This document shows, in pieces, positions 4,863 through 55,021 of a stretch of DNA of 64,000 nucleotides. A program made the position numbers and the translations under genes. The notes beneath the pieces were generated by a model. That model was not told the DNA's origin. It was given only the letters and a program-made list of their open reading frames with translations, and did not search any database. Origin of the DNA: Octopus vulgaris (lineage: Eukaryota); assembly GCA_951406725.2 (NCBI GenBank), contig OX597819.1:21700001-21764000 (forward strand), written 5' to 3'. Within the stretch, counting starts at the first letter, position 1. Each line of letters opens with the position of its first letter.

Positions 4863-6112
4863 TATATAACAATTAAATCTAAAAGTGTTTCTAGTCTCGC
4901 TTTAAAACAACGTCGAGATTAGAATAAGTACACGATGGATTACGTATTTTCGTTTATATATGTTCCAAAATGTTTAGTTAGTTTGTTGTCGTCGCTTTTA
5001 TAACCATGCATGTCTATAACCACGCATATATTTACAACCACTTATATCGAACTTTAATTTATCCACCAATAGCCATAACAACCCGCCTGACAAAGATGTG
5101 ACAATTAGTGTGAGAAAGGAAATTGTATAACACTCCACAGAGCATATGGATTAATGTTATTATTCGAAAGCAAAGCTCGGAACGTAATCGTACATAGAAT
5201 TAATTAATTTCCATTCTCAATGGTGTGATACGTAATTATCACTTTATATGATACGATTATATTAATATTGATGTAACACATTCAGCCTAAATGTCCGCTG
5301 TATGTCAAAAGTCTAAGAGAAAAATAAATGACGCAAAACTCAACTCGGCAACAGAAATCATTACATCAGTTTCTTAAAATAAAATTTTGTTGTCAAATCA
5401 GCGATAATTATTTAGCTGATGTCTCGATTCCCTAAATCCTAAATGCAGTAGCTAAATCTCCCACAAATTACTGTGATATTGAAAGTACAACTACGGAGTA
5501 ACCCGAACTCCAAGGGAACCCTTACACACATGTACACACACACTCACACTCACACACGTACATACGTCACGCACATATGCATTTCTATTGATATGAATGT
5601 ACATACTTTGGTGCATACTTTGATATATATATATATATATATGTGTACGTATGTATATATATATGAATGTATGCATATGTGTACGTAAATTGCGCTAGAG
5701 TTTAGTATGCTTTGGGCTCAAAAGAAATCACGAAATGCGACTAACTAAGTTAATGGAGTTAATTATAGTCGTGACGTGATATAAACATTACAAAATCACC
5801 AGGAGACAGAAAAAACAATCGGAAGAGGAATTCATTAAAATATAGAGCAACATTTTCCGAAAATAGTATTTAGAGATTTAATGTTTTAGCATCTTCGAGA
5901 AGTCTTCAGTTTGTGTCAAATGTATTTAAAACATCGGTGCTTACCCCCGTTTCAGATAATAAACCGGATGTTAGTGTTAACGTTGATATTTTAGGTTTGC
6001 AGGCAATAGAGGTTACAATTTCATGCTTTTTTTTTAACTACTACCTAAATTCCCCTATTTTCAACAATGATGTTTAAACTGTTATTTATGTTACTTTTAA
6101 AGATAAGATTGT

Positions 6113-6359
6113 GGAGGCACGTGGCTTAATATTTAGGGTGTCAGCACCATGATCGTAAGACTGTTGTTTCGATTCCTGGACCGGGCCACGCGTTGTGTTC
6201 TTGAGCAAAACACTACATTTCACGTTGCTCCAGTCCACTCAGCTGGCAAAAATGAGTAACGCTGCGATGGACTAGCGTCCCGTCCAGTTGGGAAACACAT
6301 ACGCCATTTAAACCGGGAAACCGGGCTCATGAGCCTCGCTAGGCTTTAAAAGGGCGCAT
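6113..6359 (+). mobile_element. S2 tRNA-derived SINE (tail type 1)
   Basis: A-box-like gtggcttaatatt and B-box-like tttcgattcc, then ttgtgttcttgagcaaaacact...ctccagtccactcagctggcaaaaatgagt, shared with 25621-25947 and 53090-53421. Confidence 0.85.
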
Positions 6360-6429
6360 AAGGGAAAGTAAAACGTTGTTGTTTCTTAACTCTTCAAAAT
6401 ATCTGTGATTCAGAAGCGCGCTCTGCAAC

Positions 6430-6740
6430 GTCTTGGAGTTGTTCCCACTGCATGGCACCTTTGGAAAGTGTCTTCTACTACACTCTCAGTATGACCAATG
6501 TAAGGTTGAAACTGTGTGTCATATGTGAGTGAGTGTATGTGCCAGTCAGTCTTGACCTCCAATATTGATTTGTTTATGCAGCCATAACCTAGCGGTTCGG
6601 CAAAGGGTTACCTATAGAATAAGTTTCAAACTTTAAAAAAAATGATTGTACTGGGGTGGATTTGTCTGACTAAATGCCCTGCCCTACGAGGCAGTGCCCC
6701 AGCGTGGCCAGATTTTATGAGAAAACAACTAAACTATGAA
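6430..6740 (+). mobile_element. Old decayed S1-type SINE
   Basis: cccactgcatggcacctttgg, gtgtcttctacta, tagcggttcggcaa, tagaataag and gtgccccagcgtggcc match S1 in order. Confidence 0.7.
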
Positions 6741-7289
6741 AAATAAGTGATATTAATACAGCGCAGTATGACGAGTGACATAAATTTATCGATCTCTTCC
6801 TAATTGCCTTCCTAATTGCCACTGTAAATTGCTCTGTACTTTTGTATAGAAACGTTTTTTTGGTTTTTTATATTCTTATATTGTTTATCAGATCAGGCTT
6901 TGTAGTTTATAGCAATGCAGTGTAATTAGATCGTTACTGAATCATTCAATACCGGGCTAGAGTCCAATGCGAAGAGCCAAAGCTACAGTGTTTAGAGCCA
7001 TATCCTGGAGATGATGAAATGACAAGCAGTAAACTTTGAGAGATTGAAACCAGGAAGGATTATTGTTGTTGTTGGTGGAGGCGCTGGTGCTCTTGTTCTT
7101 ACGACAAATCTTTCCTTCGTAACTACTGTAACTACACATTCTTGTGGCGTTACCCAACACCCGGGGTATATAACACAAACGATGTCCTTCATACACTGGA
7201 TGATTATATAACGTTGAGATGCGCTACAACTGGATGAATGTCAAAAATAGCGCGTATATACAGGCGTGCTCAATGAAAATGCTATGCTC

Positions 7290-7302
7290 ATTATTATTAT
7301 TA

Positions 7303-7375
<73 letters not shown>

Positions 7376-7491
7376 CATTATTATTATTATCATTATTATT
7401 ATTATTATTATCATTATTATTATTATTATTATTATTATTGTTATTGTTATTATTATTATCATTATTATTATTATTATCATTATTATTATTA

Positions 7492-7525
<34 letters not shown>

Positions 7526-7568
7526 CATTATTATTATTATTATCATTATTATTATTATTATTATTATT
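7290..7568. repeat. (TTA)n array at the 3' end of the R4/Dong element
   Basis: Directly visible; abuts the element 3' UTR. Confidence 0.97.
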
Positions 7569-9606
7569 CAGTAGTTTTAATTTTATAGCATGCCTTCACT
7601 TCACTACCGAGCGCAGCTCTGTGTGCCTTGAGTATGTGCTGTGATTTGTTGTGATGCTCTGATGGTTATTGTAAGGAAAGTGTTCTGCGTAGGATGTGTG
7701 CAGTGACTAGTAGTGCAATTTTCTGTATGTTATATGTGTTTGTAAGTCCTGGTGTTTTTGTTATATATTTGTCTGAATAATTTTTTATCATGCCTAATGC
7801 AACTACTATGAGAGGAATTGTTTCTGTTTTTAGATTCCACATTCTGGTTACCTCTATTTCCAGGTCTTTGTATTTTGAAAGTTTCTCCATTTCTTTTCGA
7901 GGCACATTGTCATCTGTTGGTATTGATACATCAATTAGAAAGCACTTTTTTTCTACATGATCTCTGACAACTATATCTGGTCTGTTGGCCTTAATTTCTC
8001 TATCTGTGTGTATCGGCATATCCCAGAGTATGGTTGCTTTCTCGTTTTCTGTGACCTTTTCTGGTGTGTGCCTATAACATCTTTTTTCTGTTGTTATTCC
8101 ATAATGTTGGCATAGCTTAAAGTGTATGTAGGTCCCAACTTTATCATGTCTGTGAATATATTCCTCCTTAGCCTGGACTGAGCAGCCAGAGATTATATGA
8201 TTTATTGTTTCTTGTCCATCTCCACATTTTCTGCAGTTACTTGTTATATTTCTTTTCATTACATGTTTTTGGTAATTTCTAGTGGGGAGGCTTTGGTCTT
8301 GTGCGGCAATTAAAAATCCCTCTGTTTCTGCTTTGAGTCCTGAGCTTCTCAACCATTGCTGGGATTTTTCTTTGTCTATTTCTTTTGCATTTAGTTTAAT
8401 CCAGTATTGACCATGAAGGGGGCTTTTCTTGCCATTGTTTTATCATGGTTCTTTGCTGTTCTAGTTTTAGTTTGGATTCCATTTGTTTTATAGCTTTTGT
8501 TGTTTCTTCATCTTCTTCTTCTACTTCTTCTTCTTCTTCTTCATATTTGTTAGGTGGTATGATTTCTTGTTTGTATCTGTCAGCTTCCTTAAATACTGAG
8601 AACAGTTTTTTGTTTTGCTCGTGTTTTGCCGCTATTTGTATCAGTTTTCCTTCCTTCTGAAGTAGATATTTTTGCAGTCCTATGGTGGTTATTTTATAAT
8701 AGTTTTCCAGCTGTATAAGGCCTCTACCACCTTCTATACGTTGTATATATAGTCTTTCTATGTCAGATTTTAGGGTGATGCATCCTAGATCCTGTCATTA
8801 TTTTTCTTATTTTCCTATCTATTTTGGTCAGTTCATTTAGTGTCCAGTTAAGGATATTGTAACTGTAACTTATAACTGGGACAGCTAAAGTGTTAATACC
8901 TATTATCTTGTTTTTAGCATTGAGCTCTGTTTTTAGTATTGATCTAACTCGTCTATAATATTCTTTTTTTATTTTCTCTTTCATTTGTGTGGGTTGTGTC
9001 TTATCTATTTTATAGATTCCTAAGTATTTGTAAGTTTGGCTTTGGTCTAATTCTTTTATTTCATTGGTTTTATCTAGTGTGATGTTGCTACTCTTAACTA
9101 GTTTTCCTCTTTGCAGGGTTACTTTGGCGCATTTTTCTAATCCATATTTCATATCTATTTCTTTGGTAAATCCATGAACTGTCTTTAATAGTGTTTCCAG
9201 CTGTTTGTCATTTGCAGCGTACAGTTTTAGGTCATCCATATATAAAAGGTGGCTGATCGTTTTGCCGTAACATTTATATCCGCATCCAGTTCTATTTAGC
9301 ATATCAGATAGAGGTGACAGTGCCAAGCAGAAAAGGAGTGAAGAGAGCGTGTCTCCCTGGATTATTCCCCTTCTAATGGGGATGGCTTTGGTTTTCATGA
9401 GTCCCTCTTTTGTTTTGTGCTGTAGCACTGTTTGCCATTTATTCATAGAGTGTCCTATGTATTTTATAATTCTTGGTGCTACTTTGTTAATGGCTAGTGT
9501 TTCGAGGATCCATGTGTGGGGGATGCTATCAAACGCCTTTTTGTAGTGTTTCGAGGATCCATGTGTGGGAGATGCTATCAAACGCCTTTTTTGTATCAAA
9601 CGCCTT
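7569..9606 (-). mobile_element. R4/Dong-clade non-LTR retrotransposon, family A, 5'-truncated and frameshifted
   Basis: ORF 8763-9599 has RT motifs YKKAFDSIPH, GIIQGDTLS, YMDD, YKYLG. ORF 7666-8352 has CRKC..HIISGC, RHD, RPDIVV, LIDVSIP, KLSKY (RLE). Frameshifts near 8765 and 8420. Flanked by (TAA)n on both sides. Confidence 0.93.
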
Positions 9607-53471: not shown

Positions 53472-53719
53472 CTTTGACTTTTGCTTTATATTTGTACAAG
53501 ATGACTCCAAGCCTCACCTAGAGACCTCAAGAGACAACGAGTTGGAATTTCATGTTGGTGTTATGCATAGGGTGCCATATATTTGGTTTTGCACATAGTG
53601 TTGTTCTAGAGAATGTCTAAGAAAACAAGAATATTGTGTTATTTGTTTTAAAATTTGAGATTACATAGACAGTATTTTGCGTAGGATATGGGCAATTCCC
53701 ATGAGCACTATCTTTTGAA

Positions 53720-54013
53720 GCGTGGAAGGTGTTTATAAGCTATTAAAAAAAAAAAAAAAAAACCGTTAGATTCACTTCAACATTTAAATTTAATTTATCA
53801 AAATATTTTCGTCGCTTTGTTTTGTCAGTGAACAGGCCGCTGTCTTAAAGCGACGAAAATATTTTGACAAATTAAATTTAAATGTTGAAGTGAATCTTAC
53901 GGATTTTGTGTGTCTCTTAAATGGCTTATAAACACCTTCTCCGCTGCAATTGTTTTCGTTCCACACACGATATCCGATCAGGTCACTTGCTATGCAAGTA
54001 CATCACCGTAACA
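53720..54013 (+). mobile_element. 294-bp fold-back element with 10-bp TSD, probably derived from a Penelope-like pseudo-LTR
   Basis: TSD ATCTTTTGAA at 53710-53719 and 54014-54023; ~100-bp imperfect inverted repeat; removing it restores the host frame AEIQKIVLMGIAHILRKILSM*. Confidence 0.88.
53821..53871 (+). ncRNA. Type I hammerhead-like motif with G3-C8 covariation
   Basis: TTTGTCA-GTGAACA-G-GCCGCT-GTCTTAA-AGCGAC-GAAA-ATAT-TT-TGACAAA: 7-bp stem I, 5/6-bp stem II, AATATT palindrome. Confidence 0.65.
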
Positions 54014-54733
54014 ATCTTTTGAATTTCTGCCAATTATGGGTTTCCTGGTATCTGACCTAGGTAGCAATCAGCCCCTTTTGCTATAATTCCCAGGGCACCT
54101 ATGACAACAGGTATTGTTTTAGTCTTCAGGTTCCACATTTTGCCGATTTCTATTTCAAGATCTTTATACTGGCTCAGCTTTTGGTATGTCTTGACAGATA
54201 CGCTTATATCAAAAGGGACAGTCATATCAATGAGGAGACATGAATTTTTGTCTGAAGTCCTTCAATATTATGTCTGGGCTATTTGCATCTATCTTTCTGT
54301 CAGTTTGAATGGTGAAGTTCGACAGGGATGAGATGTGATCATTTTCAAGCACATTTTTTTTATCATGGGCAGGTCCAGGTTTTTGCAAATTACCCAGTGA
54401 ATATATTGTGCAGTTCTATCATGCCTGTTGACATACTCTGTAGGCGCAAGAAGACTGCACATGGAGACAACATGATCAATGGTTTCATGTTGTTGTTGAC
54501 ATAAACGACATGTGTAGCTGCCGTTCTTCAATATGATGGCCTGGTAGTTTCTTGTAGGTACACATTGATCTTGGGCTGCTATGATAAACCCTTCTGTTTC
54601 TGATTTTAAGCCAGAAGCCATTAACCATTGATGGGTAAGATCTTTGTCAACATCAGCATTAATCGCTCTCTTTGGGTATTTCCCATTGAGAGGTTTTCCC
54701 TGCCATGTATAAGTAAGAATATCTTAGGCAGCA

Positions 54734-55021
<288 letters not shown>

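What the first reader, a model, noticed from the sequence alone, without database searches (positions are those of the whole stretch)
53821..53871. Hammerhead fold with the C3-G8 core pair swapped to G3-C8
Seen: TTTGTCA/TGACAAA (7-bp stem I) encloses GTGAACA, a GCCGCT/AGCGAC stem II, GAAA, a self-complementary AATATT and a UUU triplet. The inverted left arm reads GTCGCT, fully complementary to AGCGAC. Established: the hammerhead core is CUGANGA...GAAA, C3 pairs with G8, compensatory swaps can rescue cleavage, and Penelope-like elements carry minimal type I hammerheads with palindromic stem III that act as dimers. Inference: GUGAACA is a natural G3-C8 covariant that a CTGANGA motif search would miss, marking a variant-ribozyme retroelement family. 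Predicted cleavage is after 53864.
Basis: partly seen in the sequence, partly recalled or inferred. Interest (0 to 1): 0.85.

Follow-up and report, generated by a model that had tools for sequence, protein, structure and literature searches.

The report
Swapped-core hammerhead in Penelope retrotransposon
This 51-base stretch is one of thousands of copies of the end repeat of a Penelope-type jumping gene, and it has the layout of the small self-cutting "hammerhead" RNA these elements carry but with two paired core letters exchanged across the whole family, so it is likely a natural, so far undescribed ribozyme variant, although cutting is untested and this particular copy is probably a dead fossil.

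Summary
Confirmed and extended. Window 53821-53871 is the hammerhead motif in the pseudo-LTR of a Penelope-like retrotransposon. A full pLTR-ORF-pLTR copy (RT plus GIY-YIG) carries it twice, 4,261 bp apart. The genome has 4,916 exact motif matches (control 0). G3 and C8 are the family state (49 and 46 of 50 copies picked without using the motif), and an older family shares them. Sister families 52-54% identical in protein carry the homologous motif with C3-G8 or U3-A8, and a metagenome relative has C3-G8. Stems I, II and the palindromic stem III change in compensating ways, so the 3-8 pair is kept in three Watson-Crick forms. Papers I could search report only U3-A8 as natural; G3-C8 appears only as a partly active lab mutant. 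This scan noted G3-C8 earlier on other DNA (protist elements, phages; unchecked). Against: cleavage is untested; 0 of 86 copies begin at the predicted cut; a successful sister family has A9 changed to C. This copy has a stem II mismatch and is predicted to be buried in a long hairpin. New variant of a known kind.

The parts
53710..53719 (+). Left copy of a 10-bp target-site duplication (ATCTTTTGAA)
   Evidence: Only two occurrences in the window, one at each end of the insertion
53720..53818 (-). Inverted, 5'-truncated second copy of the pLTR. It starts inside loop II and ends at the first of the family's two 3' end points.
   Evidence: Self-BLAST of 53715-53949 as an inverted repeat; BLAST of the motif query on L001
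53821..53871 (+). Minimal type I hammerhead motif with G3-C8 core: stem I 53821-27/53865-71, core 53828-34, extra G 53835, stem II 53836-41/53849-54, GAAA 53855-58, palindromic stem III 53858-63; predicted cut 3' of U17 at 53864
   Evidence: Sequence, fold, family counts, homologues
53921..54013 (+). First ~31 codons of the element's ORF (starts MAYKHL), with a 1-nt deletion in this copy. It ends at the second 3' end point (the 'tail').
   Evidence: Alignment to L003. In L094 the same start runs on in frame into the RT ORF. 3' ends of 86 copies fall in two groups about 60 nt apart, 34 and 52.
54014..54023 (+). Right copy of the target-site duplication
53600..54735 (-). Host sequence interrupted by the insertion: a decayed LINE-like 3' end. 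The reading frame continues across the two flanks. Likeness to R4/Dong-type elements is recalled, not tested.
   Evidence: Translations of L001 minus strand and of both flanks

Best explanation
The motif is the hammerhead of the pseudo-LTR of a Penelope-like retrotransposon family in which the core pair reads G3-C8 instead of C3-G8, and in intact copies it is likely a real, slow, dimer- or protein-dependent self-cleaving RNA kept by selection on its fold. Shown: element identity, position 93-94 nt upstream of the ORF start, family-wide G3-C8, and homology to C3-G8 and U3-A8 motifs of sister families. Inferred: G8's 2'-OH geometry needs only a Watson-Crick 3-8 pair, so G-C substitutes for C-G at reduced rate; two motifs (the two pLTRs of one transcript, or two RNAs) pair through the AATATT palindrome to make stem III; the cut would fall 3' of U17. 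Reverse transcription likely starts inside the ORF's first ~100 nt on uncut RNA and runs to the RNA's 5' end, which would give the thousands of ~170-230 bp solo pLTRs, often with an inverted second copy. The window locus is such an insertion, with a target-site duplication, and is probably inert.
For: Full element L131 with the motif at 2242 and 6503 around an RT-GIY-YIG ORF; GIY-YIG PF01541 above cut-off; 26 of 30 loci were not needed to see it, but 22 of 30 endonuclease loci show the motif within the 1.5 kb held downstream. 4,916 exact matches with positions 3, 7, 8 free, control 0; 96 of the first 100 listed are G3-C8, counted by eye. G3 49/50 and C8 46/50 in copies picked by the ORF start only. 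An older family has G3-C8 in 14 of 19 matches, with different N7, loop II, stem I and a shorter but still palindromic stem III. Sister family B (54% aa) C3-G8 in 97 of the first 100 of 3,716 matches. Family C (52% aa) U3-A8 in about 82 of the first 100 of 674, with 9 U3.G8. Metagenome relative L146 (47% aa) has a canonical C3-G8 core at the same place before a homologous ORF start. In 16 hand-picked representatives the 3-8 pair is C-G 6, G-C 5, U-A 3, U.G 2, never a mismatch; stem II pairs 2-5 and stem I pairs 1-3 show double-sided changes. The RT-EN tree groups the three genome families with C3-G8 relatives outside. C3G/G8C partly restores cleavage in a Penelope-like hammerhead (PMC11167929).
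Against: No cleavage data. 0 of 86 copies have a 5' end at the predicted cut and 74 of 86 extend upstream of it, so integrated cDNA comes from uncut RNA; the same was reported for a canonical element (PMC11167929), so this neither shows nor excludes cutting. Family B, young and abundant with intact 1,312-aa frames, has C at position 9 in 93 of 100 listed matches and an imperfect stem III palindrome, so core departures are tolerated in this clade. The inserted base after A9 is G here, while the published >80% consensus has H (supplement of PMC4209133). The 16 representatives are related and hand-picked with patterns that fix part of stem II, so the shuffle value (1e-5) is not a probability; the tree implies only two or three independent changes of the pair. 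Several single old copies show weak stem I (1-3 bp in 9 of 16).
Confidence: 0.68

Rival explanations
1. The motif descends from the element's hammerhead and is kept as a fold, for example as a protein-binding or translation or splicing control structure at the start of the RNA, but it no longer cuts at a useful rate.
For: Copies come from uncut RNA. Hammerhead mutants did not affect insertion in vitro (PMC11167929). Sister family B thrives with C9. Elements without canonical hammerheads proliferate well (PMC8557442). The motif sits about 15 nt after a sharp RNA boundary and just before the ORF start.
Against: The 3-8 pair is a tertiary contact of the active conformation (PMC3884650). Keeping it in three Watson-Crick forms, together with U4-G5-A6, GAAA, UH and the stem III palindrome, is more than a plain three-way junction needs.
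Confidence: 0.25
2. G3-C8 is a neutral double hit: the hammerhead died once in the ancestor of this family and two substitutions happened to be complementary, then hitchhiked with amplification.
For: One origin on the tree is enough. C-G to G-C needs two transversions through a mismatch. Copy number reflects amplification, not selection on the motif.
Against: Between the young subfamilies and the older family, N7, loop II, distal stem I and loop 3 all changed while the core, G3-C8, stem pairing and the palindrome stayed. A dead motif should decay at all positions alike.
Confidence: 0.06
3. The fold is a chance product of a foldback (MITE-like) DNA element's inverted repeats.
For: The locus is a long hairpin, and one head-to-head junction recurs at 7 of 86 sampled places.
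Against: The motif lies within one arm, occurs in solo copies and in both pLTRs of a full RT-GIY-YIG element, and is positionally homologous to a canonical hammerhead. Descriptor hits in shuffles: 0 in 100.
Confidence: 0.01

Closest known systems
Minimal type I hammerheads (min-HHR) of metazoan Penelope-like elements (Cervera and de la Pena 2014, PMC4209133; parts 1-2 of 4 read, supplement searched)
   Same: In the pLTR; one extra base between 9 and 10.1; G10.1-C11.1; palindromic 15.2-16.2/loop 3; UH; mostly solo copies and opposite-strand pairs.
   Different: Core pair G3-C8. That paper reports only C3-G8 and U3-A8. The extra base is G rather than H. Stem I is 7 bp rather than 4-5.
Natural U3-A8 core covariants (Perreault et al. 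2011, PMC3088659, passages; PMC4209133)
   Same: Compensated change of the same tertiary Watson-Crick pair. Sister family C in this genome is such a U3-A8 case.
   Different: U3-A8 is reached by two transitions through U.G (seen here in 9 of 100 family C matches). G3-C8 reverses the pair and has no paired intermediate.
Laboratory C3G/G8C double mutant, including the Poseidon element of Anolis carolinensis (Frangieh et al. 2024, PMC11167929, parts 1-2 of 4 read)
   Same: Same core letters. Partial rescue of cleavage in a Penelope-like hammerhead. Two RT start points near the ORF start giving a tail, and uncut RNA as template, match the copy ends seen here.
   Different: Engineered, not natural. 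In that element the ORF starts inside the ribozyme; here it starts 56 nt after the predicted cut.
Neptune / Nematis clades of EN+ Penelope-like elements (Craig et al. 2021, PMC8557442, passages)
   Same: [quoted passage not shown]
   Different: Which of the two clades was not determined, because no named reference proteins were at hand. The tail is about 60 nt rather than 30-40.

Membership tests
EN+ Penelope-like element | Single ORF with RT and C-terminal GIY-YIG endonuclease | tested here: met
   GIY-YIG PF01541 25.1 bits, cut-off 22.6, on the 213-aa C-terminal piece. RT motif YVDD in 839- and 1,025-aa frames. Pfam on the 839-aa frame gave no family, so the RT call rests on motifs and on likeness to P0001-P0005.
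EN+ Penelope-like element | pLTR-ORF-pLTR partial tandem with ORF start inside the pLTR | tested here: met
   L131: motif at 2242 and 6503. ORF start runs on in frame in L094.
EN+ Penelope-like element | Inverted 5'-truncated copies, optional 3' tail, AT-rich targets | tested here: met
   TSD at this locus.
EN+ Penelope-like element | Retained intron in the pLTR / 5' UTR | tested here: inconclusive
   A branch-point-like CTAAC, a pyrimidine tract and YAG lie just upstream of the motif. No donor was identified and no spliced RNA was seen. The same boundary could be the transcription start.
Neptune or Nematis clade | CX2-5CxxC linker before the endonuclease; placement in a reference tree | tested here: inconclusive
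   Linker present. No named references in the tree; motif search of the PMC8557442 supplement found nothing.
Minimal type I hammerhead ribozyme | Core U4 G5 A6 N7, A9, G12 A13 A14, A15.1-U16.1, H17 | tested here: met
   48-50 of 50 copies at each of these positions.
Minimal type I hammerhead ribozyme | C3 and G8 as letters (CUGANGA) | tested here: not met
   G3 49/50, C8 46/50. This is the variant.
Minimal type I hammerhead ribozyme | Watson-Crick pair between 3 and 8 | tested here: met
   G-C here; C-G, U-A, U.G in homologues.
Minimal type I hammerhead ribozyme | Stems I and II with G10.1-C11.1, supported by compensatory change | tested here: met
   Family-type copies fold both stems with probability near 1; double-sided changes across families. 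The window copy has one private mismatch in stem II.
Minimal type I hammerhead ribozyme | Palindromic stem III for dimer formation | tested here: met
   AATATT in the family, AATT in the older family and family C, ATAT in L146. Imperfect in family B.
Minimal type I hammerhead ribozyme | Match to an Rfam hammerhead model | tested here: inconclusive
   No hit at the motif, but the canonical L146 motif was missed too.
Minimal type I hammerhead ribozyme | Site-specific self-cleavage 3' of H17 | not testable with these tools
   Only contigs were available. Genomic 5' ends do not mark the site.
Non-LTR retrozyme | Head-to-tail tandem units that replicate as circular RNA | tested here: not met
   Copies are solo or head-to-head. 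The few tandem runs seen (L025, L114) include flanking microsatellite and look like local duplications.

The most novel reading that the evidence does not exclude
One clade of Penelope-like elements in a single animal genome has kept a working hammerhead through all of C3-G8, U3.G8, U3-A8 and G3-C8 (and possibly C9) cores. The G3-C8 form would be the first natural reversed-pair hammerhead, present in thousands of copies and invisible to CUGANGA searches. Crossing from C-G to G-C through an unpaired state and then holding the new pair would show that cleavage is selected in these elements but weakly, or is rescued by the element's protein, which makes the open question of what Penelope hammerheads do directly testable with natural alleles.
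Probability: 0.55. Interest if true: 0.7.

Novelty: new variant of a known kind. Interest (0 to 1): 0.56.

Why it matters
The role of hammerheads in Penelope-like elements is unresolved: they are near-universal in canonical clades yet dispensable for insertion in vitro. Here sister families supply natural alleles of the catalytic core (G3-C8, U3-A8, C3-G8 with A9 or C9) in almost the same stems, with near-intact proteins, so activity can be compared directly. A natural G3-C8 core also means that descriptor searches fixed on CUGANGA undercount hammerheads, and some elements reported as lacking one may carry a swapped core. It is not a new mechanism: lab double mutants predicted that the swap can work.

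Tried and rejected
Rfam found no hammerhead at the motif; uninformative, since the canonical control was missed too. MIR841/MIR9563 hits reflect the long hairpin only. No RNA holder was listed on record; laying four contig sets could not show RNA ends, strand or splicing, and the shown rows list no other letter at positions 3 or 8 (26 rows not shown). Viral contigs held no relative. PDB sequence search found nothing. Of 10 metagenome loci, a hammerhead-like motif at the expected place was found by script in 1 (L146) and by eye in 2 more (L144 with U4G; distant L148); the other 7 end early or show none. MITE and retrozyme readings were considered and rejected (see rivals and membership). A short upstream ORF over the motif was considered; its frame differs between subfamilies. 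Literature searches for a natural G3-C8: hammerhead+G3-C8 (one paper, a lab variant), +C3G+G8C+natural, +G3C8 (none), +GUGA/core variant, +'G3 and C8' etc. (one unrelated), +Penelope+octopus. Not held, so not seen: Lunse et al. 2017 (PMC5785218), Przybilski and Hammann 2007 (PMC1986816), Martick and Scott 2006 (PMC4447102); one supplement file of PMC4209133 was not searchable. Any of these could list a natural G3-C8. L254 was dropped from the tree (under 250 aligned residues).

Full report
Observation. The letters are as described. Stem I is 53821-27 with 53865-71, the core GTGAACA is 53828-34, an unpaired G follows at 53835, stem II is 53836-41 with 53849-54 (one C.A mismatch), GAAA is 53855-58, the palindrome AATATT is 53858-63 and U17 is 53864. 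The 51-mer folds into stems I and II. A descriptor with any Watson-Crick 3-8 pair hits this site once in the window and never in 100 shuffled windows; I wrote it after seeing the motif, so this is a weak control.

The locus. The motif is part of a 294-bp insertion, 53720-54013, flanked by a 10-bp duplication, inside a decayed LINE-like sequence whose frame continues across the flanks. The insertion is a forward pLTR (53821-54013) plus an inverted truncated copy. A transcript across the whole locus is predicted to form a long hairpin that removes both hammerhead stems (probability 0.0). With the private stem II mismatch and a frameshift in the ORF start, this copy is probably inert.

The family. 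The genome (2.8 Gb; probably a cephalopod, my inference from size and microsatellites) has 4,916 exact matches to a pattern with positions 3, 7 and 8 free, control 0; 96 of the first 100 listed are G3-C8, counted by eye. A 24-mer at the ORF start has 10,027 matches. Among 86 copies taken from the first 100 of those places by that anchor alone, 50 cover the whole motif: G3 in 49, C8 in 46, and 48-50 of 50 at the other core positions. Four coded species labels hold the sequence.

It is a Penelope-like element. L061 links the motif to a GIY-YIG frame. Of 30 loci fetched with that frame, 22 show the motif in the 1.5 kb held downstream. L131 is a full pLTR-ORF-pLTR copy with the motif at both ends, 4,261 bp apart. 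L094 shows the pLTR's ATG, 93-94 nt after G3, running on in frame into the ORF. Frames of 839 and 1,025 aa carry the RT motif YVDD, a CX3CxxC linker and the endonuclease; Pfam named no RT family. The linker places it with Neptune or Nematis (PMC8557442, passages); I could not tell which.

Copy ends. 3' ends fall in two groups about 60 nt apart (34 and 52 of 86), often followed by (AT)n, which is the Penelope tail pattern. 5' ends: 0 of 86 at the predicted cut, 74 upstream of it, and 28 within a few bases of a fixed point about 15 nt before stem I (local alignments to two references, so some ends are approximate). That point follows a branch-point-like CTAAC, a pyrimidine tract and YAG. It may be a splice acceptor or the transcription start; 15 of 32 listed copies that begin there have a non-templated G in front, some explained by the inverted arm. 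This fits the published in vitro picture of internal RT starts on uncut RNA (PMC11167929, parts 1-2 read).

Covariation. A metagenome relative at 47% protein identity has a canonical CUGACGA core, an extra G, a G-C closed stem II and a palindromic stem III at the same place before a homologous ORF start. In this genome, family B (54% aa) has C3-G8 (97 of the first 100 of 3,716 matches) but C at 9 in 93 of them. Family C (52% aa) has U3-A8 (about 82 of the first 100 of 674), with 9 U3.G8, 6 C3.A8, 1 C3-G8 and 2 other (counted by eye). An older family related to ours has G3-C8 in 14 of 19 matches with different N7, loop II, distal stem I and loop 3; I linked it by pLTR and ORF-start likeness, not by its RT. 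In 16 hand-picked representatives the pair is C-G 6, G-C 5, U-A 3, U.G 2. Stem II reads GTCGC/GCGAC, GTCAC/GTGAC or GTTGC/GCAAC, and stem I and the 15.2-16.2 pair also change on both sides. These rows are related and were found with patterns that fix part of stem II, so the shuffle value is not a probability. The tree (24 rows, L254 dropped, rooted on the two most distant rows) sets our family apart with 100% support, groups B and C at 100%, and places C3-G8 relatives outside the three at 93%. G3-C8 is thus most simply derived once. I ran no formal one-clade test.

Mechanism. Established: C3-G8 is a Watson-Crick contact of the active core (PMC3884650, passages); minimal Penelope hammerheads cut slowly and as dimers (PMC4209133, parts 1-2); C3G/G8C partly rescues a Penelope-like hammerhead that needs the element's protein to cut (PMC11167929). 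Inferred: the family motif cuts 3' of U17 when two copies pair through AATATT or when the protein folds it, and cutting is not part of making the integrated cDNA. I put this at 0.68, a non-cutting conserved fold at 0.25, and neutral drift or chance at 0.07.

Novelty. The papers I could read report U3-A8 as the only natural covariant (PMC3088659, passages; PMC4209133, supplement searched). Searches for a natural G3-C8 found none, but three key papers were not held. Other papers touched: bioRxiv 2026.07.22.740005 (part 1 of 5), PMC6765202 and PMC10085705 (passages). This scan noted G3-C8 cores before in protist Penelope-like elements (with an extra core base) and in phages (unchecked leads, not support); nothing was on record for this genome or sequence. 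What this case adds is an otherwise regular core, thousands of copies, a full element, and sister families with the other pair states. Verdict: new variant of a known kind, interest 0.56.

Noticed in passing
L251:5215-5265 and about 3,700 genome matches: Sister Penelope-like family B, young with many intact ~1,312-aa frames, has C in place of the nearly invariant A9 and an imperfect stem III palindrome. It is either another natural core variant or a decaying ribozyme in an active family.
   Followed up: partly
L253:4670-4720 and at least 674 genome matches: Sister family C has a U3-A8 core, with a subfamily showing U3.G8, a plausible intermediate from C3-G8.
   Followed up: partly
L171, L175, L202, L203, L205, L206, L211: The same head-to-head junction of two pLTR copies recurs at 7 unrelated places among 86 sampled copies, so a palindromic unit seems to have been amplified as a whole.
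   Followed up: no
L131:2190-2225 (just upstream of the motif): A sharp 5' boundary of solo copies coincides with a splice-acceptor-like sequence. An extra G in front of many copies hints at a copied cap and hence a transcription start. Not resolved.
   Followed up: partly
L144:1735-1785: A metagenome relative has a U4G core (CGGACGA) at the homologous position; single contig, may be an error or a dead copy.
   Followed up: no
L114:1740-3100; L025:1190-1620; L284: Local head-to-tail runs of pLTR pieces that include the hammerhead motif. These would be natural dimer substrates if transcribed.
   Followed up: no
window 53600-54735 (minus strand): Decayed LINE-like element that received the insertion; the window is otherwise rich in microsatellites.
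   Followed up: partly
L136 (minus strand, about 5558-8420 from its end): An LTR-retrotransposon-like coding stretch sits inside a copy of the element.
   Followed up: no
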